A DNA stretch of 64,000 nucleotides from Adineta vaga (Eukaryota > Animalia > Rotifera): positions 6,386,001 to 6,450,000 of the forward strand of contig CP075494.1 in NCBI GenBank assembly GCA_021613535.1, read 5' to 3'. Positions 25,084-57,063 of the stretch are shown piece by piece (position 1 is the stretch's first letter; every line of letters starts with the position of its first letter). The notes beneath the pieces are model-generated. The model did no database searches. It was given only the letters and a program-made list of their open reading frames with translations, and was not told the DNA's origin. The position numbers and the translations under genes were made by a program.

Positions 25084-28000
25084 ATGACTGAACAAAATAC
25101 AGTAAAACTATTCAAACGTTTACCACAAACGATCGTTCCAATACATTATGAGTTAACGATTCAACCATTCCTCGATACATTTAAATTTAATGGAGATGTT
25201 ACCATTCATTTACAGGTTCGTTTTTTTGTTTCACCAATTTATACAAATTAAATAATGCTATTCTAGGTCAAGGAATCGACAGATACTGTGATATTATATG
25301 CAGCTGAATTACAAGTTCATCATGCAAAAATTGTATCAATTTCAAAAGGTATATTCAAATGTTTGTTGGATGTAAAGACATTTTACGATTTTTTAGATGA
25401 ATTGAAAGGTACAATTGAACTTGATGAGGAAAATGAACGGTTAAAAATAAGTTTTGATAAAAAATTAGAAGTAATTTATCTTTATTAATTGAAAATGAGA
25501 ATAAGATTGATTTTTCTTACTAGAATGGTGATCATCAATTATCATTGAAATTTACCGGTGAAATAAGTGATCGTATGGTTGGTTTTTATCGAAATAAATA
25601 TGCAACACCTGATGGTAAAGAAGTTCGTTATGGAGCTAGTACACAATTTGAAGTAATAGAAATTATGAGAGAAGATTATTTTGATTATTGATGAATGTTT
25701 TTTTAGCCAGCAGATTGTCGACGAGCATTTCCATGTTGGGATGAACCGAATTTTAAAGCAACATTTGATATTACATTGATTACACCAAAAAATCTTCAAG
25801 CAATTTCAAATATGGTTTGTATATTTTAACATGAACATCAAAATTCTTAAGATTGAGATTTGTGGGCTGAATTTCTTTTCATACTATGAGAAACACTCGT
25901 TTATCATCGAATATATTTGAATAGGTCGATGATATTTTGTATTTTTAGCCAATAAAATCTGAAAATGAATTTGCTGATAATAAAGATTGGAAAGTAACAA
26001 CATTTGATCGTACACCGATTATGAGTACATATCTTGTTGCTTATGTTGTTGGTGAATATGATTATGTTGAAACAAAAGATACCAATGGTGTTAGTATGCG
26101 AGTTTATACTCCAGTTGGCAAAAAAGAACATGGCAATTTTGCATTAGATATCGCTTCGAAAGTATTACCGTTCTATGCAGAATATTTTAATATTAAATAT
26201 CCAATTGCTAAAGCTGATCAAATCGCAATAGCAGATTTTGCTATGGGGTAAAAAATGATTGTTTGTTCGTTCGATTTAATTTAATTTGACTTTCTTTTTA
26301 GAGCAATGGAAAACTGGGGTGTAAGTTGATGTTTATTCTTTTCGTTTTATTCTATTGTTTGAGTTGGAAATGTAATCTAGTTGGTGACATATCGTGAAAC
26401 TGCGCTTTTGATTGATCCAAAACTTTCATCCATAGGTTCTCGACAACGTGTTGCTATTGTTGTTGCGCACGAACTTGCACATCAATGGTTTGGAAATCTA
26501 GTGGTATGTAATTTTTCTCTATTGAAGATTCAAAACTAAAATAAACATTATTTTTTAAATTTTGATCTTAGACTATGGATTGGTGGACGGATTTATGTAA
26601 GAAAAAGCAATGTAACTTTGCCTTGATCATTACGTATGTTTTATTTTAGGGCTCAATGAAGGATTTGCTTCATGGATTGAATACTTAGCAGTTGATAAAT
26701 GCTATCCGGAGTTTGATATTTGGACACAATTTGTTGCTGATACATTTGCACGATTTCTTATTCCTGATGCATTGAAATCTTCGCATCCAATTGAAGTACC
26801 AATTGGTACATATCTTTTTCTAATTTTTCATTATATTCATATAGTAAATATAATCTGTTTAGGTTGTCCTGCTGAAATTGATGAAATTTTCGATGATATT
26901 TCATATGCAAAAGGTTCTTCAGTAATTCGTATGTTACACGATTATATTGGTGATGATGCTTTCCGAAAAGGACTTCATAATTATTTAAAAGAATATAGTT
27001 ATAAAAATACAATTACAGTGAATCTTTGGTCACATTTAGCTAAAGCATCGAATAAACCAGTCGAAGAAGTTATGTCATCATGGACATTACAAATGGTTAG
27101 TAAAGATAAAAGTTATTTGTTTAACATATCATGTCTATATTTAATTGAGCTAAAGTTGAATTTACTGAGAATATCGATGCGTACTATTATTCTAACAGTT
27201 TTTTTAATGTCTATCGACTAATTTTATTCTATTGTTTAGGGTTATCCATTATTGACTGTAACTGAAGAGCAACAGTCGAATAAAACTCGTGTTCTTAAAT
27301 TAACCCAACAACGTTTCATTGCTGATGGTAGTGTTGATGATGAAAATCTCCAATGGAAAATTCCGATAACTATTTTCACAAAATCAAATCCAAATGCTAT
27401 TGTAAAACAAATTCTAATGGATAAACCTGAAGTTACTGTAGCATTAGAAAATGTTTCCGAAGATGATTGGATTAAATTAAATTATAATTCAATTGGACTT
27501 TATCGTGTTAAATATGAATCAAAAACATTAGCACGTCTCAATGAACCAATTGCTAATAAAACACTTAGTCCACAAGATCGACTCATCATTCAAAATGATG
27601 TTGCTGCTCTATGTAATGCTGGTCATCAATCATTTGTTGATTATTTGAAATTATTATTATCTTATAAAGATGAAGATAATTTTACTGTTTGGAAATCTAT
27701 TGGTAAAAACAAAACGATACTTGATCATTCACTCATATGGTTAATTGTTTGTTTTAGCATCGACAATTGGCGATCTATCATCTCTACTTGAATATACTAA
27801 TTATTTCGATCAATTCAAGAAATATCGTTTAAATCTTTTCTCATCCATACAAGATAAACTCGGCTGGAATGCGAAAGAAAATGAGAATCCATTAGTCTCT
27901 ATGTTACGTCCAATGATTTTAGGTTTAATGGGCAAATCAGGCGATCAAGCAGTGATTGATGAAGCAAAAAAATGTTTTAAGAAACATCTTGCTGGAGAAT

Positions 28001-28751
28001 TAATTGATCCAAATATTCGCGGAGCTGTCTATGGTTTAGTTTCACGTTATGGCGATGAAACTACCCAAGAAGAACTTCGAAATTTATATCAAGCAGCTGA
28101 TATGACTGAAGAAAAAGTTCGTTTACTTCGTTCAATGGGACAAACAGTTAATCCTGATACCATTGAAAAGGTTTTACGCTTCGTATTTGAAGGGGTATGG
28201 TTGGTTTTAAACAACTCATTCAGAAAAGCAGATGTTGAGTTCATAGTTTTGACTGATGAATTCTTGTCGGTCTTTTAGGCTAAAGTTTCATTCTATATTT
28301 GACTGAATTATTCATATTCGTACAATTCGCTGTTTTATTTATATTCTTCTGTAGGATAATGTCCGAATGCAAGATTCATATATGGGTCTTGCTGGTTGTT
28401 CAAGCAGTCGAGTTGGCCGTGAAATTGTTTGGAAATATTTACAAAATAATTGGAAGAAACTTGCTGAACGTTACGGTGAAAAGAGCGGTCTTCTTATTTC
28501 ATTTGTTGAAGTAATTAAGAACTTGATGGACTTCGTTGAACTTAATGATTTCCTTCTGTGTTTTTATTTAGTATCCTTTATCGGAATTTGTCGATGAAAA
28601 AATAGCAAGTGAAATCAAAGCATTCTTTGATTCTGTTAACACACCGATTGTTACACGAGCTATAAAACAAATTGTTGAAACAATCCATATGCGTGCAAAA
28701 GTCTTGGAACGTGATTCAAGCGCTATTGAAGAATATTTAACACAAGCATAA
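25084..28751 (+). CDS. NPEPPS: Puromycin-sensitive aminopeptidase (M1 family)
   Basis: N-terminal [48 protein letters not shown], zinc motif [13 protein letters not shown]...[22 protein letters not shown]1-like C-terminal domain. No signal peptide. Confidence 0.95.
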
Positions 28752-29529: not shown

Positions 29530-32500
29530 ATGACATCATCTAGTGATAACGATGATAGTACATCAACCGATTCTGATGATGAATCAGTTTTCTTTGATGC
29601 AAATAGCAGTCCAACAAATATCGATACACTCACGTAAATATCGATTAATAATCTACTTTTGAAGAGAAAACTTCTTCCTCATCTAAATAGATCTCTTCAA
29701 CAAGAACCTCGATGGCGAATATCATCAAAACAGGATACAAATAAAGCACCTGTACGTTTATTCGTGTATAAAAACGATATATTTTGACAAAACGTTTTTT
29801 TTTCTTCTTCTTTCAATTAGGAACATTTTTGTACTATATCATTAACAGAAAATCAATTGCATGACATACAGAGACGTGATAAACTTCAACGATTGCGAGG
29901 TGTTGACACTCGAAATAATTCTAATGTTACAGTAAAATCGACAACTGATTCGCCTACGGTTTTATCGACATCATCAGTAACAACTGATCAAGATTTGAGT
30001 AATGAAGATGCTTCAATAGCAACTGACGCTTCCATAGATTATACAACTAGTGAATATAATCGAAACAATTATAAGGTTAGTAGATCATATTAGTCGTTTG
30101 AAAAGAAATAAAATATAGTACAACACGCATTATAAATGACAATGATGTCTTTTTTTTTCATTCGTCTACATAAACAGTTTTCCCAAGGTAATAGTATATA
30201 GACAAATGTTTTCTGTCAAAACTTGCTCTGAATCGTTAATGAGCAAACATACGAATATTCTTTTTCCCATGTGTGATATATCTTTTATGATTATCACATA
30301 TGGTTGAAAGTTACTATTTGATACTTTATTCAAAGACTTTGTTTTGCAAGTGAGACCCTAATATATTGTCTGATGTTCAACCGTTTGTATCGAGTCGTTT
30401 GTGTTTGTTATTTTTTTTTCAAGAGAAAACATCAATCAAGTACTGATGGTGTACCATTTGTTATTTCAAGGTCGATTATAAGAATGTGATGAATTCTGAT
30501 TGGTTTGATACTTAATTGAAGTATTATTCTGTATAATAAAGATTTAGAACGTTAATTTTGATTCATTGTTCAATGCATAAAGAATAGATAAATCATCTAT
30601 ACTTTTTATACAGGATTCCAGGTCTTCCACAATTCAACAAACGTTGATAAGTTCTTCCATCACATCTAGTGATCAATCTTACACACCGTCTTCCTCATTA
30701 TCTGCAACCTCCGCTCGTGGTACTGGTGGATATTATTCGACTAGAAAGTCTCTATCAACAACCAATGAACTGAGTCCAATCGATTTAAATACTATCGATC
30801 ATATAACAAAATATGGTGAATTATCTCCTAATGGTCGAAAATTAAGTGATAATGAAATTCTTCAACAACTAATTGTACATAATCTTGATAATGGTAAATA
30901 CATTCCCTTAACTGATGCAAATCCAATGAATGAAACTATCATGGAACGTGTACGAGGAACGGAAAGTATCAAGATCTTACGCTCTAATTCATCGATAAAT
31001 AGTAACAATAGTTTAAGAAAAAAATCTATTGATAATATAAGAAAATCAACGATCAGTCTTCCACATAATATTCCTGATAATGAATCAACATCATCAGAAT
31101 CATCTAGTCAAACAGTAGCAAGATCAATTATTGATAGACAAGCATCAGCATCGAATCTACGACGAGAAACATCTATTCGAAAACAATTAACTAATTTAGT
31201 TATGCGAAATATTTTACGTAAAGGAAAACACAAAACAACTGATAATCATCATGATACAGGTGATGATGAAGAAGATGATACAGAACGTGCATTGATTAAT
31301 GATGGTTCAAATGGTGATTTGAAATATAAAGCATCCAGATATTTAAAAGAACAAACACAATTTGATAAAACACAATTATTACAAACAATTGTTAATGCAC
31401 ATAATGGACCTATATGGTGTATGAGGTATTTAACCTACGATCTTTTTCATTGAGATATAATAAGTTACTTTTCTTTTTTCTCAAAATTTCATTTAGATTT
31501 TCTCCTGATGGTAATCTTCTTGCAACAGGTGGACAAGATACACTACTGAAAGTTTGGGTTTTAAAATTAGCTCAACCGAATTTTAATGATTTTTCTCAAT
31601 TGACATCGAATGCTTCACAACAACAAAATGAAATTCTCACGAATCGATTTCATGACTTCCATCGAACAATTTCAACAGAACCAACAACATCTACAATAAA
31701 TACAAGACTTGGTCTAAATGAAACGCAAGCACCACTCTATACAAAACCATTTTGTGAACTTATTGGACATCAAGCACCAGTTCTTGATGTTGCATGGTCG
31801 AAATCTTTATTTCTTCTCTCATCATCAATGGATAAAACTGTTCGTCTATGGCATTTAAGTCGATTAGAATGTTTATGTTACTTTCGACATGTAGATTTTG
31901 TTTCAGCTATTGCCTTTCATCCACGAGACGATCGATTTTTTGTATCTGCAAGTTTAGATGGGTAAGAATTCATAATTATTTCGAAATAACATGCATTCTT
32001 CGGATGTTCTTTTTGTATACGAAAACGAGTATATTCAAAGAGACTATTGATATAAGCATACTCTATTCAACTGGACGGAAAAAGGAATAGACTAATGGTT
32101 TGCGATTAATCGGAACTCTTTATCATAACTCTTGCTCAATCTTAGTGCTTCGTGCCAAGCCGACTCGTTTCCTCTAGTTCTCTCTTTCTTTATTCAAAAT
32201 ATTCTACAACAGATTCGTACTCGGATTGACAGTATGAGAGATGCAAAGTTTTCGAACTGGAAATAGAACACAAATTATACTTGTAATACAATGTAAGAAA
32301 TCTCATTATCATGTCGCATATATGAAGTTCCGTTATTTTTACATCTGTGCGTTTCAGATAGTCTTAGAAAATATTGACACTTGATTTTGTTTTTAAATAA
32401 ACTATTTTTCAGACATGTTCGTCTTTGGAATATTCCGGACAAACGTGTTCTTCATTGGTCTTTAATTCCTGCTCAAGCTTCATCACAAATATCAGCGGCT

Positions 32501-39238: not shown

Positions 39239-42200
39239 ATGACATCAATGATGATAGATGAAGCCAATGGAAATCATGATGAACTATCAAATTCCGCAAA
39301 AGTTGTGAAATTTTCGAATTTATGTAATTTACTTGAAAGAATTTCGAAAAGTCAGGGTGCGATTGCTAAACAAAAGCTTATGACACGATTTATCTGTGAT
39401 TGGCGGAAAACACATAAAGAAGTTCATGCAAATGATTCGTCAGTTGTAGTACCCGCTCCTATAACAACAGCTGATGGACAAACAGCTACTGGTGGTGTTA
39501 CTGGAGCATCACCAACAATTCTGCAAGATTCATTCTATCCAATTTTACGTTTACTTTTACCACAATCTGATCGAGAACGTATTGCATATGGTCTTAAAGA
39601 AAGTAAACTTGGTAAACATTTAGTTGAAGTACTTAGTATTTCAAAAGATAGTGATGATGGAAAGAAATTGTAAGTAAAAGTTTATCTTTCTAGTTCATAG
39701 TTGTTATTTTATTTTTATATAATTCAGATTGAATTTTCGTGTACAGAAGAACACACGTACTCAGAAAGGAAGTGACTTTGCTGAAGTTGCTTATTATGTA
39801 TTAAAAAATCGTTGTAATGAAGACGTAACAATGAGTATTTGGGAAATTAATAAGATTTTGGATGAAATTGCTGTAGAAAATGGAAAAGGAAAGGAAGGTC
39901 AAAAGGTATGTGTAAATCTTCTCTTTTTCTAATAACTAAAGAGAATGCTGTTTCTTTAGATTATCGATCATCGTCTGACATATTTACTGCGTCATCTCAG
40001 TGCTCTGGAATTGAAATGGTTAATTCGTATTTTATTAAAAGATTTACGTGTATCTTTAAAAGAAAATTCCATTCTTGAATGTTTCCATCCTGATGCCAAA
40101 GATCTATTTGATCATACAAGTAATTTATTTAAAGTAGCTGTTTATTTACATGATCCTGAAAAACGTCTTCATGAAATTGGCCTTAGTTTATTTTCACCAT
40201 TTCGACCTATGCTTGGTAAACAAAAACCGATTCGAATCTAAAGAATTTCATAGAAAAATATCGATTCTATTTAGGTGAAAGAACCCGTGCTGATAAAATT
40301 GAACAATTAATTCGAAAAAAATCAACTAATCCATCAGCTGCTCTTGCAGAATTCTATATTGAAACAAAATATGATGGTGATCGTTTTCAATTACATCGTG
40401 ATAAAGATCAATTTATGTATTTCTCACGTAATGGTCATGATTATACCAATGTTTTTGGACCTGATGCAAATAATATCGGTACATTAACACCATATATTGC
40501 GAATACATTCAAAATCGATTGTGAAAAATGTATCATAGGTAAATTTTTCATTTCATCGGTTTGTTTTCAAGGAAATAAGTTATTTTTTTTCAAATGAATT
40601 TTTTTAGATGGTGAAATGGTTATTTATAATCGAAATGAAAAAATTATACATTCCAAAGGTGATAGCTTTGATGTGAAAACTATTCAAGCCAATGATTCTC
40701 AATTGCAACCATGTTTTATTGTATTCGACATTTTAATGTACAATGATGAAGTTCTAACAAATAAACCATTGAATGAACGTTTACAATATTTACATAAGAA
40801 AATTCTTGAACCAATCGAAGGACGAATTATATTCTCAGCTATTAAACCCGGTGCATGTAATCAAGATGTTATTAATGAATTAAACTTAGCAATTGAAGAA
40901 CGACAAGAAGGTATTGTTGTCAAAGATCCGTGGGCTGTTTATAAACCAAATGTTCGAGAAAATGGTGGTTGGTATAAAGTATGTAGATGAAATCATTGAA
41001 TATTAAAGATAAACATACTATGTTTGATTTTAGATCAAACCAGATTATACTATTGGTAAGATCTAATCAAGTAATTATCGGATATTTAAATGTATTTATT
41101 CTAGGTCTTAATGACGAAATCGATTGCTTGATTGTTGGTGGTTATTTTGGTACTGGTCGTTTACGTGCTGGTATGCTTTCTCATTTTCTTTGCTGTGCTG
41201 TTGTAAAACAAAGTAATACAACAAATAATTCCGAACCAAAAAATCCCGATGATGAAAATGCAACAACATCAACACAATGTAAAGTTGATGTTCGTGATTT
41301 TCTATATTATACATTCTGTAAGATTGGTTCTGGTTATACACATAAAGAATTACTGGATTTCAATAATCGTTTTGCAAATAAATGGAAACCATGGTCGAAA
41401 AAGACTGCACCATCCTATATCTTATGTACACATGAAAAACCTGATGTATGGATTGAACCAAACGATTCATGTATTGTTCAAGTTAAAGCAACAGAATTTA
41501 TGACATCGGATAAATATAAATGTGGTTTTACATTACGTTTTCCACGTTTAGAAAAATTTCGCGAAGATAAAGCTTGGTATGAATGTGTGACTTATCAAGA
41601 ATTAATCGATTTACGAGAGAGAAATTCCGGCAAATTAGCATCACGTTTTATGGAAAATGATTTAAATGATGATGGACAACAAACAATAACTATGACAAGA
41701 CAATTACAAAACAAATCTCGACAACAAGCTAAACCAACGGTTGATTCACGTTTTCGTGGTATTGATCAACAAGCTGTTAAACAAACCGGACATTTCTTAT
41801 CAAATTTACAATTTTGTGTTATGGAAGGTAATGCTAAATATAGTAAAGCTGATTTAGAAAAGCTGATTTATGAAAATGGTGGAACTTGTGTACAAAATGC
41901 AGTTTCCAAAACACATTGTGTCATTACAGGTAATCAAATCTAGATAATTTATTTCAAATATTCATGAACAATTCTTTTTTTGTTTTTATTTCATTTAGAT
42001 AATCCGTCTAGTATTCGTCTCCGTACATTGATTAAAAATAGACAATATGATATTGTCCATATTGCCTGGTTAGTTCGCTGTATTGAACACAAAGAATTAC
42101 TTCCATATTATTTATCTGATTTAATTTCTTGTACTGATAAAACACGTGCAGGTTTGGATTTACTCTATGATGAATTTGGTGATGCCTATTATACAACAAC

Positions 42201-42786
42201 TAATGAACAAGAACTTCGAGAAATATTCAATAGAATGACATCAGCAACACCCATTCCTTCATCACCACCATCTTTACCATCGACACCGAATAAAAAATTA
42301 CCTACAAATAAAAAACGTCGTCTCAATGAACCAGTTCCATTATCTCAAACGACAATTAATATTAGTACAATATCAAATCCATTGAATGAACAAGAAAAAC
42401 TCCGTACATTCATTTCCGAATTTGAAAATGTTTATTTTCCTGATGAATCATCGGATTATGGACTTTTTCGTTTATTCTATATCTATTTCGATCAATATTG
42501 GACTATTGGTGATGAATCAACTCAATTTATCGATTCGAATCATAGTTTAATCATATTAGAAAGTCAATTGCATGGTGCGCGTGTTGCCCATTCAATTACA
42601 TCGGATGTAACTCATGTTATTTGTGCTAAAGCAGATATTGATGACAAGAAAGCTAATGATCGAATAACTCTTTTTAAAAAAATTAATCGTGATCGTTCAA
42701 CTAAATTTCATTTGGTTAGTTATGAATGGATTAAAGCTTGTATTGATAATCAACGTCTTGTAAAAGAACTACCATTTGCTCTGTAG
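39239..42786 (+). CDS. LIG4: DNA ligase IV
   Basis: RLLLPQSDRERIAYGLKE, adenylation motif YIETKYDGDRFQLH, IDGEM, EGIVVK, IKPDY, TLRFPR, two BRCT domains with the inter-BRCT XRCC4-binding segment YDEFGDAYY...ELREIF. Confidence 0.96.
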
Positions 42787-43232: not shown

Positions 43233-43627
43233 TTAGATTGGATCATCAGATAACCCAACAAATTTACGACGAACATCTAAAGAAAAATGTGTTCATTTAA
43301 ATGTCACATATGACAATAGAAAGGATTCTTACATGAATGTCTATTCATATCCTCATCATCGAAACGATTAAATACACGTTTCTGATGTTCTTCTTGTGAT
43401 TCTTGTGATTTATCATCGAATAATCCACGTCGCTTTGCTTCCAATAATAAATCCAAAAGTTTTTCTCCAAACAAATCATTTGAAACCTAGATCGAGTATG
43501 TTAATGATAACATCAAAATCTTTTACCTCTAATTAATCATACTTACACGCTTGCTTTGCCTCGTATCTACCACACTTATTAAACATATAGCCATCATTAT
43601 GGCAAAAACAATAAACTTTGCTTCCAT
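43233..43627 (-). CDS. Secreted prepropeptide A (92 aa), C-terminal peptide FVGLSDDPI
   Basis: Not in the ORF track. Exons 43627-43547, 43486-43333, 43276-43233: MEAKFIVFAIMMAICLISVVDTRQSKR/VSNDLFGEKLLDLLLEAKRRGLFDDKSQESQEEHQKRVFNRFDDEDMNRHS/YVRRKFVGLSDDPI*. Signal peptide and several basic cleavage sites. Confidence 0.8.
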
Positions 43628-46029
43628 CTGTATAAAAAAATAGCACAAATTAGTTATCATCGTATCCAATCATTGACTTACCGATGCAAAATCGTATACG
43701 TTACCAATCGTATAGAAAAAATATGATTCTAATGCAAACAAAAATAATTTCCTTCTCAGTATCGTTTTTAAGAGTTATTGATGCATATCCGTCGATTTAC
43801 TGGTCGTTTTTTTCTACCTTTCTTCATATTCAATGGGTTTTTATACATTTAATGCATAACGTCATCGTCATTCGCCAACTTATCTATCATTGTTTTGAAT
43901 CTCTGTTTTCTTATATGTAATTTCTTTATCCTTCAAAACCGTTACCTAAATGACGTGTACAACTCTATTGTGCTTTTCGTATGTACAAAACATTTTTTCT
44001 ACGTGTGAAATATTTTTGCCCAATGAGTAAAACTGGGTATAATGACTCTTGTCTCTCATGTGAGCAATCAACCTGAGATGATGCAATTTACCTGATAAAT
44101 ATATCAGATACTATTTTGATTATATTAAATAGTATTAATACAGACATGAGAGTTATAAAGCAAGTTTGATATAACTATATACATTCAATTAAATGTATGA
44201 TACATGCTGTTGTTAATTGTATAATAAATTGTCAACAGCTCCATTTTTCGAGTTGATTGATTCTATATATAACATCATTTGTACATGAGTCAATTAATTG
44301 GTATGTATTACATTTTTACTAAACTATCTAGTTTTGATGATAAAAATTTTGCATAATAAACGTTTCGAAAACAAATTGTTTTTTTACAAATTCGAACGAA
44401 ATTATGTCTCAGGTAATATCAGTAGCAATTTGTATGCAAAAATAAGAAACTGAAATCGAACATAAATGAAAAGAGTGTACAGCTCGAGGGTTCCAAGCAG
44501 TCGTAGAGAGCATCATTTCAGTAATTCAATCTGAAAAACAGAAAGGAAAGGAATGTGTCAACAGTTGTTTAAATTTACTCTATCGTCAGATGAAATCTTT
44601 TTCTTCATATTCGTTTTTTTTGTCTTTACAGTACACTCTTGTCGTGTATAATCACAGTCAGTCCAAGTGTGATGTAGAAGAGTCATGAAGTCTATAGAAA
44701 AGTTTCACAAGAAAGATTATATTTCAATTAGGCTAAAAGTATCAAGATTCTCTTTATATTCTAAAGCAAGCTTTTATAAATTTATCTGACAAAATGAAAC
44801 TATCTTCGAGAGATTTTCATTAACATACTCTTGTATTTTAATGCAAGCAGCATTCTGAATCAAAAGACGTATTCTCTGAGATTTTACAGTTGATTCCAGT
44901 CGTTTTACATAGTTAGAATCATCGTTCGGACTACTTTTGAGAAGAGATTACTGTGTTGATTTGTATTAAAATATATGAGCATCCAGAGTTTTATTTCTTT
45001 TCTGGAGACAAATTTGAAAGACTTGGTTTATACTCATATAAAATAGTTATGTTAACCTACTATTACAATTTAGATATCAATTATATCGTCGATTATCTAT
45101 TTGTTCGTTTCTAATGAGTTTTTGGTTGATCAACAATCCTCATCTGTTCATTAATAAATTTAGTTCATTGAGGTGTGTAAATTTTCCTTACTGATATTTT
45201 AGAATTCTTGAATAAAACTAGGATATTCCTTTATCTAAGCTCTATGTAAAATTAGTACAAGAAGGAGCTCAAATGGTATGTGAACAATGCTTTCGTTTAA
45301 TAATCTGGTACCTTGTTGATGTACTTGTATTCAAGTGACTTATCCATGGTCAAAAAATTAATTGATAGTTTTGTGAGCATGATATTTCAATATCAACGTT
45401 CAAAGTTGAAATATATATCATTTGATAAATAAAAAAGAACTTTCGATAGTATCACTTATCAGCATATTCAAACAATACCCTAAAAAATCAATTATAAAAC
45501 AACAAGTACAACAAAATTCTAGGATTAACTTGAGTTCTCTATTAATTAACACGATATCATTTATTCAGACATTTTTTAACCAAACAGGAAGTTACATATC
45601 AGATAAAAGTATTATTTATTCACGGCACACTCAATCTGTTTCATTCTTTCGATCCTTTTCTGTGTGTCTACTGTGGAAAAAAACCATCAAATAAAAATTG
45701 TATTCAATATTAATTAGATATGAATTTGCGTCTTCAAAGATCAAGATAATCTTGAATATTAATGATATTTTTATTAGGATATGCATGGGATAGAAATCGA
45801 TGTATTCGCAAGTAAGACTTCGAATTACTTGTTGTTCTAGGCGATAGTTATGAAAATGACAACAGGAGAAAAAAGAAAAATTTCATTTATATCAGCTGAA
45901 ATGCACGCATTCATTTTTATATCAATAAAAGATGAAATAACTCGAAGATATTCAAATGAAACAAACAAAAAAGACAAAAGATTTAAAAATGAATGAGTAA
46001 TATTCGTTTCAGCAATGATAGAAATTGAA

Positions 46030-46446
46030 TTAAAATGGATTATCGCTAATGCCAACTAATTTTCGGCGAACAACTAAATAAAAAATTGTAGTACAGATAT
46101 TAATCATAAGAAGAAGAAAAAAAGAAAGAAAAGAAGCAAATATCTTACATGTTCGTCCTCGATTTTCTTCATTACTTTCTTGTCGAAATCGATCGAGTTT
46201 GTATCTCGGTGATTCTTCTTTCATTTGTTTATACTTATTTAATAAATATTCACGCCATTTCATTTCAATCAATGTAGTCAATACTTGATCTTCAGATAAA
46301 TACGTTGAAAACTATGAAAAATATAAACGATATTTTCTTCATAAGATTTGTCAGTTTTTACTTACGGTTTTTCGATCGTTGGCATCGATGATGGTTATGA
46401 AACAAGAAGCGATCACAATAGCTAACACAATACTGACAATTTTCAT
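46030..46446 (-). CDS. Secreted prepropeptide B (95 aa), C-terminal peptide LVGISDNPF; paralog of A
   Basis: Exons 46446-46366, 46311-46149, 46073-46030: MKIVSIVLAIVIASCFITIIDANDRKT/FSTYLSEDQVLTTLIEMKWREYLL...ENRGRT/FVRRKLVGISDNPF*. Confidence 0.8.
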
Positions 46447-48932
46447 GGTTTCTTTTGTTTAAAATGGTATCTACAAGATGAAATGAAGAATAAGTAAAGT
46501 AAACAAATTGTTTTTTTTTAAATCTAATCACAAATTTTCATTTGTTCGTATTTATTTACTGATTCATTTTACTACTTACGTCTTTAGTTATTGTTTTTAA
46601 TGTAGAAAAAGAAGAAATTATATATTCGTGCTTGTCGACGTGCAGACAGACTTGCTTTTTTCCTTTCACGCAATAAAATGAATTTAAAAAAAATACAAAT
46701 TGCACAATCGTCTATCGATACAGTTGTTTGAACAACATGATTTGTCATTCATTGTATTATTCGATTATTTGCTGGCAAGAACTGAATCTCATTTATATGT
46801 GATAGAATAGAGAATGATCCTTGTTATAGATTAAAACTGAAATGTAAAAAACTCTAATTGAATATCAAAATAAGATATCAGTTACGAAGTACATGACTAC
46901 TTATGTTGCGAGAGTTTAAAAATATCATCTATGGAGAAGTTGATTACTATTTGTAGTGTTATCAGCAGTGAAGAAGATTCGCTAGAGAATAAAGAGACCT
47001 CTCAGTTCAGTTTTGATCTGTACGGAGATCTTAGTTTTCATCTATATGAAATATCATATCATTGGCATTTTTTCAACTAACAGATAGATTGGAGTTCGAA
47101 ACATCTGATACGCTATAAATAGGAACTTTTCTATTAATAAAGTCTATTATGGCTTACCGAAGTATTCTTGTATGTTGGGATATTAAATTCGATCTTTCTT
47201 TCTTCTCTGTATATATATGGGAAGAAGAGAAAGAGAGAGCGAGAGATACGTATGTGAGTGGGTAGATATGGTAAACTATATGTAGGTGCTCAGCGTTTTA
47301 TTGATCCAAGAGAGAAAAAAATTGCTCAGTATGTTCTTATTTTTAAGTTTTAATAGTTTTCTGCATTGTAACGTCATAAACATGAGCAAACTGCTATGCT
47401 ATATTCGTGATAATGTCAGGTTTTAATTCGATAGCAGGAAAATAAATAAACCCTCAATTTTTCAACTCAGGCGTTTTAAATGATAACTTCTCGATCCAAG
47501 TTTTTCTTTCTAAATAATCCTAAAACTACTTCTATGGAGAATTCTTCATCTCTATTCGAAGAGATAGCAACAGACATAGGTTTCTCTTCACTCAAACAAT
47601 AAAATCATCATCTAGATTACTTTTAATGATAACATATCTTATATCGATTCATCCGATGTGTCATCTAGTAAAATATTCTTTCCTATCCAATTGGAAAGTT
47701 TAACTTCAGTTTTTATTTGGTCACGCATTAATCGGTGTTCATTAATAAAAATTTAACATTCACTACATACGTATGTATGTTAGTCAATATTTTCCGAACT
47801 TGCATGTGATTTCCTGAACTGTTATTGAATTATACTACTGAAAATTGATAGTATAAATATTATTTGTTAATTCAGACGAATATCTATTGAACAGATGCTA
47901 AAATCGTTCCTTTTCCAGCCTCCTCCTCGATCTGGTCTCTTCTCAATTTAAATCAACATAGATTTAATATTATTGCCAGTTCTAGTTATGTATTCCGGAG
48001 GAAACAGACCTTCCAATTATTATTAAAAGTTTAAATTCACTTGTTTTCTTACTCGTTGTATTTGGAAAAGCGAAACCTGTTGAAAAATTCTTTTATCGAT
48101 GATTTGACATATTTGACTGAGCTAAAGATTTTACCAGATACTTGCAAGGGATGTCAATATATATACATGTATAGTAAAAAAATGACTTTTACTAAGTTTA
48201 ATGAATGTGATGAATACTGATGTCTCATGTTTGTCAAGAAACAGAAATCAGGGTAACATTTTCCTTGAAGATCATATTCTCATTCTTTCATAGGACATGA
48301 CTGTTTGCACAAGACGAGTTACCGTTGGCTTGCAGATGATTTGAAGGATCTATTACAATATCCAAAAATCTGACATATACCAGACTTCTTACATGATACT
48401 CATATGTTTTCGAATATCAAAAAAAAGTTACATTTATTATTTAATACCATTTGCATTCGTAAGAGATGTATCGTTATCCAAATATTTATCCGTTTGTCGA
48501 GTATCTGTGTATGCATGTGAAATATTGACGAAACATGATTCAAACAAAGATCGTTTTACAACCTATGTCGTTTTCTATTAATTTTACTACGTTTTAAAAC
48601 AAGCATTTGTCACAATGTATAATCATTGTTCTATCAATAATTTGAAATTAAGAAGATTGCAAATATTCTTTCTATCTTAAGCTCGATCCGTTCAATCGAG
48701 TGTCTAAGGACATCTATAGTTTTGTTCATATGTACATTTCTTATTGGTAGAGAAGACTTTTACCAATTGAAGAAAACATCTACTGTTCTAAATAAGCAAG
48801 CAAATAAATAAATTTTCCTTGGAAGAGATTCACGTGAATTATAACATTATAGATGAAACATACCAACAATTTTCGAGGTCGTCTATTCAATCATCAAGGC
48901 GGCTAATTCACTATTCAGATATATTCTTATCT

Positions 48933-50461: not shown

Positions 50462-51094
50462 ATGGAACCAATTAAAAATGCTTTAGCACAAGCTGGTGAT
50501 TTAGTACAACAAGTAGCACATACAGTTGTCGATGCAATTCGTGGTACTGAAAGTGAAGAAACAGCAACGAATAATGTATGATGAAAGAATTGAACAACGA
50601 TAGAGAAGAAGTATTTATTTTTTAGAATGAAAAATCAAAAGACAAAAAGAATGATGATGACGACGGAGAGAAAACCGAACAAAATATTGATAGTAAACAA
50701 AAGAAATTTGATAAAGAACAAGATGCTACACTTCAAAAAAGTGAAATAACAGCATCATCAGGTGGTTATCGAGATCCTGCTCCACGAGTAATTGATAATA
50801 TAAATGGTTTCAAATGGAAAAGAATATTTTGTTTTTAGAGTGATGCAAAAGTATTAGCAACATCGTGGCCTGATTTGATCGGTAAAACACGTCATGAAGC
50901 AGAAGAATTGATTAAAGCTAAAGGTATGAAGAAGAGAAAAAGATTTCAATATTCTAAGATTCCTTTTTTTAGGTTATTCAAATATCAAAGTTATGAAAAA
51001 AGGTACATCATCAACAACTGAACATGATGAATCACGTGTAATTATCTTCGTCGATGACAATGATGTCGTTGTTGAAGAACCGAAAGTTGGCTAA
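50462..51094 (+). CDS. Potato inhibitor I (MEROPS I13, eglin c/CI-2-like) domain protein with a hydrophilic N-terminal extension
   Basis: Not in the ORF track; 4 exons. The C-terminus TSWPDLIGKTRHEAEELIKAKGYSNIKVMKKGTSSTTEHDESRVIIFVDDNDVVVEEPKVG* follows the WPELVG...RV.LFVD...P.VG pattern. Confidence 0.85.
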
Positions 51095-51391: not shown

Positions 51392-53156
51392 TTATTCGTT
51401 TCGAAAACGCTTTATTGTCCGACCTACGGATGGTATTTCTGTAGCAGATCGCCATAACGACGAGTTACCATGAGGAGCTACTGGAAGTGCACCGGTGATC
51501 GCCATATGGGGTTCAGAAGCATCATCTCCATTCAAGTCTCCTAGAAAAATCATTCATTGTAAATCATTTCAAAAAAAGATAATCTCCTACATACCATCTA
51601 AGGAACGCAGATATTGAAAAGTGCTAGCCCAGATGACTTCTTGATTGTATTCAACAACGATATCAACATCAACACGTTGAAGCGATGCATTCAACATTGC
51701 GGGCATGAGAAACGTGAAATTATTTCCACTTTTTTGCATTTTTTGCATCTCATGAATCGATTCACGACCATTATAACGTATTTTCATAATGAGGTTTGCT
51801 TTGTAATCTTTAGGCAGAGGACCTTTCGTTTCAAAGCAAACTTTTTCGTTACCAGACATTGGTCCACGACGTGGAAAGACATCGATTATTGAGAAATCGC
51901 CATATTCTAAAAGAAGAAATTTCTTTTTCGAATCAAACCAGTATATGAATATAGTTTTCTTTACTTTCAATCATAATATCGGAAAAGACGGTACTCGTTC
52001 TTTCTGGATAAAATATACCATCTGGAGATTTCTGTAAGCATGTAAAGGAAAGTTTTGATTGATTAAGCTGGTATTTGGCAATTATCTCCTTGGTTATCTG
52101 ACCAACTTGTTTACCTTTAATAAACTCAATGAAAAATCTACAAAGACAAAAGTTTAGAATATCAACAGAGAAAATAAGAAAATTATTTACGTTTTTTCGC
52201 CCTTTTGACAATCTTGTTCAGTAACATAAAAATAAAGCGTATTTGCTTCATCCTCTTTATATATTAATGATGATGTGCGACGCTCTTTATTATCAATTGT
52301 ATATAAATGTGGTTGATCGTTGAGACAAACAAGAGATACTTGAATAATAGTTTTGCCAGCACTCCAGTTTGGTTGGATCTAAGATAACAGAAGAGACTTT
52401 GGTATAGATTTTTTGTTTGAATAAAGTAGAAACATACTCGGATAGTTGGATGTTCGTGGCGACTGCCTTTGGCACAGCGTAAAAAGTGGGATGAGTCTTG
52501 ACTTTCACGTTCCGTTCGTGGTCGAAATTCAGAACGTGGCTGCGATAAAATTTCAATTTGTTTAGATGCTAAAGCATTACATTGTATTTCTATAATGCAG
52601 GATAAATACTTTAATAAAACATACAAAAAAAACAAAAACAAATATACTTGGCAAGTTGCCGATTTGTTCTTGAACTGATTGTGGAGGTTCATCGTGAACT
52701 GAAAAAGAAATGATATTTCAATATTTTCAAGTGAAATTGTTAGTACAAACATACCAAATGTAAAATGCACCGGATTAACCGTTTTTGATTGTTGTGATGC
52801 TAGAAACACAAAAAATTCAAATCCTCGTATTTATCATGGAAATGATCGACTTACTGATACCGTTTGGGGTTGGAATATTATCAAAGAAAACATCACTAAA
52901 GTCATCCATATAGTTGCTTATTTGTGAAGTATTTGAAAAGGAACCACAACTATTACGTAAGCCTTCCGCTATCTAAGAGAAAAACAAAACAATACGACTG
53001 AAAAATCTGTTCATCTGTAAGTATGAAACATACTTCATTTATTTTTTGATTCTCATTTACTGCGAGTGACAGAAATTGAAAAGAAGGAGTCGAACAAATG
53101 ATTGATTCATTAATTGAATCGTCGATCGGCAATAGAAAATTTTCGAAATCAGTCAT
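51392..53156 (-). CDS. Divergent Rel-homology-domain (RHD+IPT) transcription factor A
   Basis: IEILSQPRSEFRPRTERE...HPTI, LNQSKLSFT, VFSDIMIE, IPT start YGDFSIIDVFPRRGPMSGNEKV, FTFLMP, FQY. C-terminal basic KRFR and acidic N-terminus. Confidence 0.72.
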
Positions 53157-54665
53157 CTGAAATAAAAATATTATATGTGTATATATATGTATTGATATAA
53201 AGAATTATTCAATGATAAAAATAGCTGACTCGAAAGTAAAAGTGTCGATTCGTATATACTTATACCTCTTTTTTCTTTCGCGATAAAAAAGAAAAAAAAC
53301 GACAGATTCTGGCGCATTCTCTACACTAAATTTCCAATTTAAAGTGAGATAAAACCCACTTAAGTGGTTTCTTTATGAAATTATGTTTCAAATGTGTTGT
53401 GCAATGGCACTTGCATAGTATTGATCGGACATTAATATGACTCATTAAGATTACTTAGAGAACTTTTTTCCCTATGTTAAAATTATACAGTACTTCACTA
53501 CGCAGACTAAATAGATCATCTACTTAATAAAACTTTATGATAAATGATTTCGGTTAACTATAGAGTCATTTTAATGGCTCTGCGAATAAAATGAAACAAT
53601 TAATGGGAAGTGCAAATATTGGCCTTGTGCCTAAAATCTCATAAGTTGCATATCGTAAGATCCAGACTATCAGTAGACTTGATAACTATAAACGTAATAT
53701 TTAAGGGTTTATAAGTTCAAGTTGTACTAAGAAACAATCTCATTTGACTAATTTTTCATACATTTATTACTTATACAAATGGCAAAGAATCAGTCTTCTA
53801 CACGTTTCGTTTTATAGTATAGTAGACAGAATAGGAAAAAACGAATGACGACATGCGGAGGCGTTACGCATTATTTTTCCCTTGTCATATGAGAACAATA
53901 TCTTCGGTAAATATTGTGGAGGCAAATCGACAATATACTATAATGTCAGCTAACTGAGTTGATATTATAAAAAATTGGAGATGAATATGAAAACACACGG
54001 ATAGTTTTAACTATAACAGTATAACAACTAGTTAATTTTATATTCATCGGAAAGATTTCATATTTGAGTTTTAAATAGTCCCTGTTGATCCTTCAATTTT
54101 CGAAAGGTAATATTTTGAGTAATTATTCACGCGGAGAATCAAATAATTATTCATGCAAATCGGTTTATTCCATTCAGCTTTGTTTACTCTTTTCTTATTA
54201 CTTAATGTTACTATCAAAATATGTCATAATAAATCATCTAATAATGCTTGACAATACGGTAAAAAAACCAACATAATTAATCGATATGCTTGAAAAGTTG
54301 ACGACCTTTCGATTCTAGTCATATCGGAAAAAAACTTAATTCGATTTTCATATGAATTTGAACAGAACATCGATATTTAACACAATTTTTTTATTGATTT
54401 TTTTACACTCTCACATCACTATGTACAACACAGAGATAACAGAAGCAAAAACAAAAATATGAACGATTGTAAAAGAATAACGATATTTTATGTAAATTTT
54501 TTTCTTAGAAAAAAAACTATACTAAAATCTAAATTCAACGGTTAATACACAACGTTCAAATATCCCAATAAATTCCAACCGAATATGTTATCCGAAGTAA
54601 AATATGATTTGCAATAATACGAAAATAAAACCAACAAGTTTCACCACTTTATTTTACATGTTCAT

Positions 54666-57063
54666 TTATGCATGAGCTAAACGTTTGGGACGTTTAGTTG
54701 TCGATGATTTTTTCAATGAAGCAACAACTGGACATACACCGGTAGCTGAAATCATATCCAAAACATCATATGAATTGGATGTTGAAGTGCTATTAGTTGC
54801 TGTATTTGAATCACTTAAATTAAGTGCCGCTAATACTTCTAGAAAAAAAGTGAATACGTTAATTTAATAAATATGAATAGAAGAAATCAAAAGTACTTAC
54901 GATCTAATGATCCTTGGTACGCATAATTCGATGTATGAATTTCTTCTCCTTTGTAATAGATAGAAATCATTACCACAGCACGATCGAATTGTGAAAAGGG
55001 AAATGGTGGCATGGAGAAGTATACAAGATTTCCACTTTTTGTAAATGAAATCTGTTGTAGCCAACCACTCATGCTTTCTTTCACGAATACTGTTATATCA
55101 TCCTTAGAAACATGGCCTTTGAGAAGGGCATAGACTCGTTCATTTCCGCCCATGGGCCCGTATTGTGGTCCCATATGGCCAACAGTCACACCACCATAAT
55201 CTAAAAATTTCAAATAGAAAAGTTTGTCGTGGAAAAAAGGATTTCTTACCTTCAGTCATTATACAAGAATATGTCACACTACTCTCATCACGATAATAAT
55301 TGTTCTTTCCACTTTCATATATTCGTGTAAAACGAAGCATTGATTGATCCAATTCACGTGTTTTAATTAATTCTTTTGTCACAATTTCATTTTGTCGACT
55401 TTTAATGTATTCAATCATAAAACTAAAAACAAAGAAATAAGTTACTACCATAATAAAATCATTCTTGAAGGATAAATGTACCTTTTATGACCTTTCGCTA
55501 TATCTTCTGGCGTGACACGAAAGTATAATGTATGAAGATCATTCTGTCGAAAAATTAATGAATTTTCATCAAAATTTGTTTGACTTTTTTTGTTGTCAAT
55601 GGCATAGCAATGAGGTTGTTTATCCTTGGCAACAAGGGTAACTTCAATGATGTTGGTAACTGATTCAGCAGCCCATCGTTGAAATATCTACAGAGAGAAA
55701 ATTTCAATTTTACAGATTATGCACATTTGAAAAGCAATATACATCAATTGTTGGATAATCAAATTCACTGAATGGTTCACATCGAATAAAATGTGATGCC
55801 AATTTACTTTCGTTTTCTGTTCGCGGACGAAATGATTTTCGTGGTTGACATTTAATTTTAATTTGCTTGAAATCGAATGAATCGAATTGTAGTACTATAA
55901 AACAAAGATATTCAATTTATATTCAACTACAATGAAATATAACATACATTCTAGTTGATTATCAAATTCAGTATTGATTTGAATTGTTGTACATGGTTGA
56001 CAGCCACCATAAGCTAAGAGGACAAAGCAAGGGAAATAAATAAAGATTAGTATTAGATTCTATAGGTCACAACTTACTCGGAGCAACGTCAATTGGAGCA
56101 ACAGATGATGAAGCATGACGATAACCTAGAAAGAAATCAATGATGAATATGTGAAACTAGAAGAGTATGAATTAAAATTACCATTAGTTCTCCTCGTTTT
56201 CGATGCATTTTTCAATAAACGTTGATTTCGGACGGTTTGTTTAGAAAGAATAGAATCTATGAGGCGAAACGTTTTAATAACGAAAAGAATTAAAATATGT
56301 CTTACTATCGATTTCTTTCGGTTCCACAGGTGCACTACCAACTTGAACAGGTAGTGACGAAGACAATAAAGCATCTACTATATTAAACTATATATTAACA
56401 ATTGAAGAAAAAAACACAAGTCAATTTTACCTTCTTGTAATTGATTAATATTCATTTGTTCCATACTATCTTCAATAGTACTTTGTCTTGGTGTTTCGGC
56501 AATAGGTGAAGAAATTAATGCAGCAATATCTTCGGATTCGAATGAATGTTCCGGACTAGTGTTGAATACTATCGAATGCAAAACAATTCGATTCAACTTA
56601 TGAAATGAATTTTGTCAGAATTAAACATCAGTTTAATTAGAATTCGTTGGATATCTTCCAAAGATCCTCTTAATTCAATCTACAATTATTCGCTTTTCTT
56701 TCCCTAGAGTCACGATACTCTAATAACTAACTATAGTAAACATCCAATGACGTCATTTAGGTAGCTGTATTTTTATCTAAACAAAAAACTTACAGGCGTT
56801 TGGTGAATCGATAAGAGCATTTTGGATGTCATCAGCAGATATTGCATGCAAATCCTGGAAACCATTTGTGGGGAAGAACATATCATTCAAAATCTATAGA
56901 CGGATAAAAGAAAACAATTTATCAAATTTATATCAAAAACTTGTTGTTTTTTATCACTCACTTGACTATCCAAAGAAAGATCTGATACATCGTGCACTAC
57001 TGATGGTTGCGATTGACCAGTTAAATTAATAGATTCAAACAAACTATCAAAATCTTCTTCCAT
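54666..57063 (-). CDS. Divergent Rel-homology-domain (RHD+IPT) transcription factor B, paralog of A
   Basis: IKIKCQPRKSFRPRTENE...YPTI, IIEVTLVAKDKQPH, ELDQSMLRFT, IPT GPMGGNERVYALLKGHVSKDDITVF (compare Rel [21 protein letters not shown]), YFSMPP. C-terminal KRPKR NLS. Confidence 0.78.

What the first reader, a model, noticed from the sequence alone, without database searches (positions are those of the whole stretch)
43233..46446. Tandem pair of prepropeptide genes defining an apparently unassigned C-terminal nonapeptide family
Seen: two minus-strand genes about 2.4 kb apart with the same architecture (a 5'UTR intron just before the ATG, 81-nt signal-peptide exon, phase-1 middle exon ending T|GTAAGA, 44-nt last exon). 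The pro-regions are barely alignable, but the last exon is conserved: YVRRK-FVGLSDDPI* and FVRRK-LVGISDNPF*. Established: a basic cleavage site followed by a conserved terminal peptide inside a diverged precursor is the hallmark of peptide hormones and neuropeptides. Inference: a non-amidated [FL]VG[LI]SD[DN]P[IF]-OH ligand (hormone, neuropeptide or pheromone) that I cannot match to any family I know. The ORF track misses gene A entirely and catches only part of gene B.
Basis: partly seen in the sequence, partly recalled or inferred. Interest (0 to 1): 0.78.

Follow-up and report, generated by a model that had tools for sequence, protein, structure and literature searches.

The report
Undescribed bdelloid rotifer peptide-precursor family
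Two neighbouring, spliced and expressed genes of the rotifer Adineta vaga belong to a small gene family seen only in bdelloid rotifers in these searches; each encodes a short protein predicted to be secreted and cut to release a conserved tail of 9-10 residues, likely a hormone or nerve signal that matched no described family.

Summary
Confirmed. Both minus-strand genes are real: all four coding introns are bridged in RNA-like contigs, and the products equal Adineta vaga UJR20823.1 (B) and the last 92 residues of UJR20822.1 (A). Relatives were found only in bdelloids: three Adineta and four Rotaria species plus metagenome loci, one keeping the tandem pair between DNA ligase IV and tetraspanin. 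The tail K-x-[VI]-G-[LIFM]-[SGA]-D-[DNE]-P-[FIVY] holds in 19 of 21 members; 3 carry a trailing K or KR, none a canonical amidation signal. Two corrections: the pro-regions of A and B do align, and the mature form may be a Lys-started decapeptide, since Lys is invariant (21 of 21) while RR is not. No Pfam, PDB or literature match. The core tetrad recurs in nemertean achatins, but the tetrapeptide and multi-copy criteria fail and chance is about 0.26. Verdict: a new lineage-restricted prepropeptide family; processing, site of expression, receptor and function are untested.

The parts
43233..43276 (-). Gene A last coding exon (44 nt): basic site, tail peptide, stop
43236..43265 (-). Gene A predicted mature peptide: KFVGLSDDPI (or FVGLSDDPI from 43262); predicted MH+ 1090.578 / 962.483
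   Evidence: position, masses; processing inferred
43277..43332 (-). Gene A intron 2 (56 nt, phase 1)
   Evidence: joined in 6 of 7 RNA-like runs
43333..43486 (-). Gene A middle exon (154 nt): conserved leucine-rich segment flanked by KR and KRR, then acidic spacer
43487..43546 (-). Gene A intron 1 (60 nt, phase 0)
   Evidence: joined in 5 of 7 RNA-like runs
43547..43627 (-). Gene A first coding exon (81 nt): predicted signal peptide
   Evidence: hydropathy and -3/-1 pattern; no SignalP run
43628..43681 (-). Gene A 5'UTR intron (54 nt) ending at the ATG
   Evidence: joined in 4 of 7 RNA-like runs
43682..43801 (-). Gene A non-coding first exon (extent of contigs)
   Evidence: holds a 20-nt stretch 95% identical to the same place in L023
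42963..43232 (-). Gene A 3'UTR to poly(A) site
   Evidence: poly(T) loose end in run X5
46030..46073 (-). Gene B last coding exon (44 nt)
46033..46062 (-). Gene B predicted mature peptide: KLVGISDNPF (or LVGISDNPF from 46059); predicted MH+ 1089.594 / 961.499
   Evidence: position, masses; processing inferred
46074..46148 (-). Gene B intron 2 (75 nt, phase 1; in frame and stop-free if retained)
   Evidence: bridged by contig pieces in 7 of 7 RNA-like runs; open frame
46149..46311 (-). Gene B middle exon (163 nt): pro-region
46312..46365 (-). Gene B intron 1 (54 nt, phase 0)
   Evidence: joined in 6 of 7 RNA-like runs
46366..46470 (-). Gene B exon with 24-nt leader and first 81 coding nt (ATG at 46446): predicted signal peptide
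45752..46029 (-). Gene B 3'UTR to poly(A) site
   Evidence: poly(T) loose ends in runs X5 and X6
46580..47200 (-). Likely upstream non-coding exons of gene B (pieces 46583-46746 and 46690-46837; candidate donor at 47157)
   Evidence: low-depth contigs in X1 and X3; one 12-letter loose end matches 47159-47170; not bridged to the coding exon
39239..42786 (+). Flank: DNA ligase IV gene (synteny anchor)
   Evidence: Pfam PF01068, PF04679, PF11411, BRCT; same flank in L006/L010
49126..50198 (+). Flank: tetraspanin gene, part (synteny anchor)
   Evidence: Pfam PF00335; same flank in L006/L010

Best explanation
These are two expressed tandem paralogues of a bdelloid rotifer gene family whose products are predicted to enter the secretory pathway and to be cut by a prohormone convertase at the basic cluster near the end, likely releasing a single short peptide with a free C-terminus that acts as a neuropeptide or hormone on a receptor not yet known. 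Shown: gene structure, splicing, polyadenylation, conservation of the tail across Adineta and Rotaria, conserved tandem order. Inferred: signal cleavage after residue 22; cleavage after Arg, which would leave Lys as first residue (decapeptide, about 55%), or after Lys or with later trimming of Lys (nonapeptide, about 45%); carboxypeptidase removal of the trailing K/KR found in 3 members; action through a G-protein-coupled receptor that reads G, D, P and the terminal hydrophobic residue. The conserved leucine-rich pro-segment is read as a sorting or folding element, possibly a second peptide in A-type genes.
For: Spliced, polyadenylated transcripts. N-terminal hydrophobic stretch with a small residue at the predicted -1 site in 20 of 20 members (Ala 17, Gly 2, Thr 1) and no Cys after residue 24. 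Tail motif in 19 of 21 members, Lys before it in 21 of 21, a basic residue at P2, P4 or P6 in 21 of 21 under either cut. Identity by region in the 17 members not picked by the DNA motif: tail 0.58, signal 0.38, helix-like segment 0.35, spacer 0.22. pN/pS lowest in the last 12 codons: 0.06 (B vs L021) and 0.31 (A vs L023) against 0.55-1.04 in the pro-region. The B-position gene of L006 is orthologous by synteny, its pro-region is not above shuffles (62 of 200 reach its score), yet exon phases and tail are kept. Trailing K (2) or KR (1) before the stop. Language-model neighbours are mostly small peptide-hormone precursors (PDH, DH31, UTS2B, NPF; scores 0.83-0.89, leads only). A. vaga has four paralogues each of PCSK1 and PCSK2 (10.1101/802215, passage). 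For the decapeptide: a cut after Lys would put V, I, L or T at P1' in 17 of 21, and bulky or beta-branched P1' residues are disfavoured for Kex2 (PMC10699272, passage).
Against: No peptide, expression site, receptor or phenotype was observed. SignalP and ProP were not available. All members were found with queries that contain the tail, and L021, L023 and L006-B with the tail alone, so its conservation is inflated; the pN/pS values rest on about 8 synonymous sites near saturation. The one member found by neighbourhood rather than motif (L006 A-position) has a tail one residue shorter in the core with two extra residues at the end, and P0024 has a clearly different tail. Rotifer FCAP-like precursors use KK between repeats (PMC6425005 supplement passages), so Lys at P1 is possible and the nonapeptide stays open. 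The top language-model hit was the non-hormone cluster C11orf94/Frey (0.90-0.91, 135-144 shared features, below the 170 typical of true family members). The pro-segment's amphipathic moment was not above shuffles in any of 20 members (percentiles 0.13-0.94).
Confidence: 0.74

Rival explanations
1. The whole ~70-residue protein is secreted uncut and works as a small protein (signal, matrix or glue component) whose conserved tail is a binding or sorting motif.
For: The pro-region is under some constraint: B-type orthologues of A. vaga and A. ricciae are 75% identical overall and the pro-region profile exceeds all 200 shuffles in 7 of 17 other members. No cleavage product was seen.
Against: A basic cluster directly precedes the tail in 21 of 21 members, trailing K/KR occurs in 3, the spacer varies in length and is low-complexity in R. 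socialis, no Cys, no fold match.
Confidence: 0.1
2. The precursor yields two products, and the leucine-rich segment right after the signal peptide (a 17-residue piece between KR and KR in gene A and its L023 orthologue) is a main active peptide.
For: That segment is strongly conserved between gene A and L023-A and recognisable in A. ricciae, A. steineri and unnamed partial proteins; 10 of 20 members show KR or RR after it by eye on the alignment (5 of 20 by the script's stricter pattern).
Against: Both flanking dibasic sites are present in only 3 of 20 members by the script's patterns; B-type Adineta genes lack the downstream pair; identity there (0.35) is well below the tail's (0.58).
Confidence: 0.07
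3. The peptide is released to the outside as a defence peptide or water-borne cue rather than an internal messenger; the layout (signal, acidic spacer, basic site, short tail) is also that of skin-defence and pheromone precursors (recalled, no call).
For: Same layout; extra copies in R. sordida (4 distinct members); expression site unknown.
Against: The peptides are neutral to acidic (net 0 to -2), not cationic; the B peptide is identical in three Adineta species, which fits a receptor-bound signal better than an arms race or a species cue.
Confidence: 0.07
4. The hydrophobic N-terminus is an uncut membrane anchor and the tail is a cytosolic endocytic motif (DPF/NPF-type adaptor motifs, recalled, no call).
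For: Tails end in D-P-F or N-P-F in many members; basic residues follow the hydrophobic stretch.
Against: Small residue at the signal-peptidase -1 position in 20 of 20; 5 of 19 motif-bearing tails end in I, V or Y; invariant Lys and Gly are unexplained.
Confidence: 0.02

Closest known systems
Unnamed bdelloid database proteins: A. vaga UJR20823.1, UJR20822.1, UJR28747.1; A. ricciae CAF1025897.1, CAF1617456.1; A. steineri CAF1353140.1, CAF1442647.1, CAF0814835.1; R. sordida, R. socialis, Rotaria sp. Silwood1 and Silwood2 entries
   Same: Same family; gene B is UJR20823.1 letter for letter and gene A is the last 92 residues of UJR20822.1.
   Different: All are named hypothetical, unnamed or uncharacterized; UJR20822.1 carries a 48-residue N-terminal extension that RNA contigs do not support, which hides its signal peptide.
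Achatin (bilaterian acidic tetrapeptides)
   Same: Non-amidated, acidic; the core tetrads GFGD, GLGD, GIGD and GISD of the rotifer tails (12 of 21 members) all occur as KR-flanked repeats in nemertean precursors listed as achatin (PMC8557429 supplement part 4). Extended GFG peptides of acoels were proposed as possible achatin orthologues (10.1101/265579, passage).
   Different: Achatins are multi-copy tetrapeptides with an aromatic D-residue at position 2; here a single copy is embedded in a 9-10-mer, is never flanked by basic sites, and has an aromatic residue in 2 of 21.
Single-copy C-terminal peptide precursors as a kind (PDF/PDH, DH31, urotensin IIB, NPF, gastrin/CCK)
   Same: Size about 80-125 aa, signal peptide, pro-region, basic site, short tail; these are the nearest named clusters by language-model features.
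   Different: No alignment or Pfam match to any; no amidation glycine before basic residues and no cysteines.
Rotifer FCAP-related peptides (Rotaria)
   Same: Non-amidated short peptides of bdelloids ending in an acidic and aromatic stretch (PMC6425005, passage and supplement).
   Different: 8-9 copies of an 11-mer per precursor, different sequence, no Pro.

Membership tests
Prepropeptide (neuropeptide or peptide-hormone precursor) as a kind | Expressed, spliced, open reading frame | tested here: met
Prepropeptide (neuropeptide or peptide-hormone precursor) as a kind | Cleavable N-terminal signal peptide | tested here: met
   hydropathy and -3/-1 pattern only, 20 of 20 small at -1; SignalP not available
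Prepropeptide (neuropeptide or peptide-hormone precursor) as a kind | Convertase-type basic site before a peptide that is better conserved than the spacer | tested here: met
   21 of 21 sites; identity 0.58 vs 0.22; selection bias noted
Prepropeptide (neuropeptide or peptide-hormone precursor) as a kind | Mature peptide is actually produced, released from neurons or endocrine cells, and activates a receptor | not testable with these tools
   needs peptidomics, in situ hybridisation, receptor assay
Achatin | Core G-hydrophobic-small-acidic, non-amidated | tested here: met
   19 of 21 have G-[LIFM]-[SGA]-D; rough chance of such a match to one of about 65 families 0.26 (background frequencies recalled)
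Achatin | Four-residue peptide directly flanked by basic sites | tested here: not met
   0 of 21 against the precursors
Achatin | Multi-copy precursor | tested here: not met
   one copy per precursor in 21 of 21
Achatin | Aromatic D-amino acid at position 2 | tested here: not met
   Phe in 2 of 21; D-isomer not testable
Achatin | Activates an achatin-type receptor | not testable with these tools
   no rotifer receptor set or assay
Proctolin | Non-amidated, usually ending in Thr (PMC8557429 passage) | tested here: not met
   tails end in F, I, V or Y
FCAP-related rotifer peptides | 8-9 copies of an 11-residue peptide | tested here: not met
   single copy
PDF, DH31, NPF, CCK and other amidated families | Gly before the terminal basic residues; Pfam match | tested here: not met
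   no Gly-K/R in 21 of 21 (one member ends Gly-Glu); no such family among Pfam rows shown at E up to 1 (25 of 30 families shown)
Somatostatin, allatostatin C, urotensin II, CCAP | Disulphide ring | tested here: not met
   no Cys after residue 24 in 20 of 20
The 20 rotifer families of the NP-HMMer preprint | Listed there for A. ricciae or R. socialis | tested here: inconclusive
   text parts 1-2 of 3 read: no named family fits; figures, Table 1 and supplements not seen

The most novel reading that the evidence does not exclude
The family is the bdelloid form of the ancient achatin system, rebuilt from a multi-copy tetrapeptide into a single-copy decapeptide that keeps the G-hydrophobic-small-D core and adds a D/N-P-F tail, so that these peptides are the ligands of rotifer achatin-type receptors.
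Probability: 0.12. Interest if true: 0.68.

Novelty: new member of a known kind. Interest (0 to 1): 0.46.

Why it matters
Gnathiferan peptide signalling is thinly sampled: one survey calls it the next frontier (PMC8557429, passage), and the rotifer catalogue so far came from profiles of 46 families built on arthropods (10.1101/2024.07.20.604414), which cannot find a lineage-restricted family. This gives a conserved, expressed, multi-gene candidate with exact masses to look for and short peptides that are easy to synthesise in a laboratory model animal. It is a new family of an ordinary kind; lineage-restricted neuropeptides are common. It would matter more if the achatin link held.

Tried and rejected
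No whole genome was held for the window, so the full A. vaga copy number was not counted; three genes are known from protein records. Word-based protein search with gene A's middle exon found no candidate because the database model is 140 aa, outside the length range; the profile search found it. Of 21 profile hits one (P0013, 646-aa repeat protein) was dropped as spurious. Of 30 metagenome motif matches 24 were rejected (no stop after the motif, no AT-rich splice acceptor); L006, L010 and L026 were counted as one locus. Pfam, PDB sequences (0 hits at E 10) and Atlas structure rows gave nothing usable. A first pro-region control kept the signal peptides and was uninformative; it was redone without them. 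Amphipathicity of the pro-segment was not above shuffles. The tree supports a B clade (98/97) but leaves A-type and third-paralogue relations open. Horizontal origin: no non-rotifer hit among 1.84 billion representatives, but with a narrow Adineta-based profile that could not be rerun, so absence from Brachionus, Didymodactylos, acanthocephalans and other phyla is not shown. Expression by condition: locus numbers gave no matching gene row in two A. vaga RNA-seq papers' supplements (one file cut, identifier mapping unknown). Retention of B intron 2 was not seen in any contig. Recalled look-alikes not tested beyond Pfam and inspection, and set aside: plant CLE peptides, insect ITG peptide, apelin, orcokinin. 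No fold or complex prediction was run: the peptides are too short and no receptor is known. Earlier scan notes: nothing by sequence or relatives; the 8 notes by words concern other families.
Full report
Observation. The strict tail motif occurs twice in the window and never in 200 base shuffles. Of 15 runs listed I laid 8. In the 7 RNA-like runs (their RNA status is the tool's guess, but the contigs skip GT-AG introns, some end in poly(T), and none covers the 1.8 kb between the genes) A intron 2 is joined in 6, A intron 1 in 5, A's 5'UTR intron in 4, B intron 1 in 6 and B intron 2 is bridged by contiguous pieces in all 7; the eighth run covers the whole stretch without a joint. The two genes make separate polyadenylated transcripts. 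B's 5'UTR intron is not bridged by any contig. Contig depth cannot rank expression.

Identity. Gene B equals UJR20823.1 of Adineta vaga letter for letter; gene A equals the last 92 residues of UJR20822.1, whose 48 extra N-terminal residues are not supported by the RNA contigs. So the genes are in the databases, as hypothetical proteins. A profile search of 1.84 billion representatives gave 21 hits at E up to 0.001: 12 named bdelloid proteins, 8 unnamed partial proteins from environmental assemblies that resemble the middle exon, and 1 repeat protein that I dropped. A final word-based search scored 11 of 1823 candidates, 10 named bdelloid and 1 unnamed. Named species are A. vaga (three genes, the third on another chromosome-scale contig), A. 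ricciae, A. steineri, R. sordida, R. socialis and Rotaria sp. Silwood1 and Silwood2. A DNA motif scan of metagenomes gave 30 matches, 6 of them real last exons. L023 holds B then A on one strand as in the window. L006 (with near-identical L010 and L026) holds B then A between a tetraspanin and a DNA ligase IV gene, the window's own flanks. Neighbouring accession numbers suggest the pair is also adjacent in A. ricciae, A. steineri and Rotaria sp. Silwood2 (inference).

What is conserved. I compared 21 distinct members (alleles, truncated models, partial proteins and duplicate loci left out). The tail K-x-[VI]-G-[LIFM]-[SGA]-D-[DNE]-P-[FIVY] holds in 19 of 21; the Lys in 21 of 21; the two residues before it are R in 17 and 16 of the 19. 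Seventeen stop at the hydrophobic residue, two add K, one adds KR, one adds GE; none has Gly followed by a basic residue. In the 17 members not picked by the DNA motif, mean pairwise identity is 0.58 in the tail, 0.38 in the signal, 0.35 in the segment after it and 0.22 in the spacer. pN/pS is lowest in the last 12 codons in all 6 pairs tested (0.06-0.54), on few sites. These figures are biased upward because all queries held the tail. The cleanest case is L006-B: orthologous by synteny, pro-region no better than shuffles, tail and exon phases kept. Against a rigid motif: L006-A, found by neighbourhood, has a core one residue shorter, and P0024 has a different tail.

First, the pro-regions are homologous: a profile of B-type pro-regions without signal and last exon scores gene A at 21.4 bits (best of 200 shuffles 8.0) and exceeds all shuffles in 7 of 17 members. 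In gene A and L023-A a well-conserved 17-residue leucine-rich piece lies between dibasic sites, but both sites are present in only 3 of 20 members by the script's patterns and it is not measurably amphipathic; I read it as a likely sorting or folding element and leave a second peptide open. Second, the length of the product is open. Both cuts satisfy the general convertase spacing in 21 of 21. A cut after Lys would place V, I, L or T at P1' in 17 of 21; a cut after the last Arg gives Lys (18) or Asp (3) at P1' and has two or more upstream basic residues in register in 12. Bulky and beta-branched P1' residues are disfavoured for Kex2 (PMC10699272, passage only). On the other side, Rotaria FCAP-like precursors separate repeats by KK (PMC6425005, supplement passages), and an N-terminal Lys can be trimmed later (established knowledge, no call). 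I put the decapeptide slightly ahead.

Mechanism. Most likely: signal cleavage after residue 22, packaging, convertase cut at the basic cluster, carboxypeptidase trimming of any trailing K or KR, release of a neutral-to-acidic peptide with a free C-terminus, and action on a G-protein-coupled receptor. A. vaga has four paralogues each of PCSK1 and PCSK2 (10.1101/802215, passages). Only the gene, the transcript and the conservation are shown; every later step is inferred. Rivals (uncut protein, pro-segment as main product, exocrine cue or defence peptide, membrane anchor) are scored above.

Comparison with known families. Pfam gave no match above a curated cut-off for the proteins and a best E of 0.007 among the 16 rows; PDB sequences gave 0 hits. 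Language-model features place two members near small peptide-hormone precursors and C11orf94/Frey, at lead level only. Six tail motifs occur in 0 papers of the full-text library; in the supplements of two spiralian surveys the motif hits shown were unrelated proteins (PMC8557429; PMC6425005, where two files were cut when stored and only the first places were shown). Listings for bdelloid plus neuropeptide (19 papers), Adineta plus neuropeptide (19, 17 listed) and achatin plus rotifer (32, 20 listed) showed no study of this family (listings only). The NP-HMMer preprint names no family that fits (text parts 1-2 of 3), but its figures and supplements, which cover A. ricciae and R. socialis, were not seen and could hold an assignment. 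The one real lead is achatin: four core tetrads of the rotifer tails, in 12 of 21 members, occur as repeats in nemertean precursors filed as achatin (the GISD entry there is a short repetitive fragment), and acoel extended GFG peptides were proposed as achatin orthologues (10.1101/265579, passages; oyster achatins in PMC4200219, passages). Three defining features fail (tetrapeptide, multi-copy, aromatic residue), and a match of this kind to one of about 65 families has a rough chance of 0.26, so I do not file it as achatin.

Verdict. A real, expressed, conserved tandem pair in a family so far seen only in bdelloid rotifers and not found in print by these searches. It is a new family of a familiar kind, directly testable by mass spectrometry, with no function yet.

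Noticed in passing
window 46074-46148 (-): Gene B intron 2 is 75 nt, in frame and stop-free; if retained it would insert a 25-residue hydrophobic stretch before the basic site. No contig retained it; likely a by-product of a pyrimidine-rich intron.
   Followed up: partly
UJR20822.1 (P0006); also P0015, P0027, P0034, P0036, P0040: Several database models of this family carry N-terminal extensions or fusions (one to a BTB-domain protein), which hide the signal peptide and may explain why neuropeptide screens missed them.
   Followed up: partly
P0024/P0044, Rotaria sp. Silwood1: Family member with a homologous pro-region but a different 8-residue tail after the basic site, kept in both clustered sequences: possibly a paralogue with a new ligand.
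   Followed up: no
L006 2986-2606 (-): A-position copy whose tail core is one residue shorter and ends in Gly-Glu; model from sequence only.
   Followed up: partly
window 43794-43775 and L023 1350-1369: A 20-nt stretch in gene A's non-coding first exon is 95% identical between the window and L023; possibly a regulatory element near the transcription start.
   Followed up: no
window 46580-47200 (-): Low-depth transcribed pieces and a candidate splice from 47158 to 46836 suggest gene B has a multi-exon or alternative 5' leader.
   Followed up: partly
window 50839-51091 (+): Small gene with a potato inhibitor I family domain (PF00280, E 5.5e-08), syntenic in L006; a family mostly known from plants, leeches and microbes (recalled), so a possible foreign gene. 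Origin not tested.
   Followed up: no
window 7553-8653 (+), 14812-16256 (-), 23486-24096 (-), 25949-28278 (+), 30581-31965 (+): Ordinary neighbours by Pfam: C4 zinc-finger nuclear receptor, innexin, M14 zinc carboxypeptidase, M1 aminopeptidase, WD40 protein.
   Followed up: no
window 51587-55484 (-): Two similar open frames (51587-51970 and 54887-55255) both match one L006 segment; the one scanned has no Pfam match at E 0.001; they look like a repeated domain of one large gene or a tandem pair.
   Followed up: no
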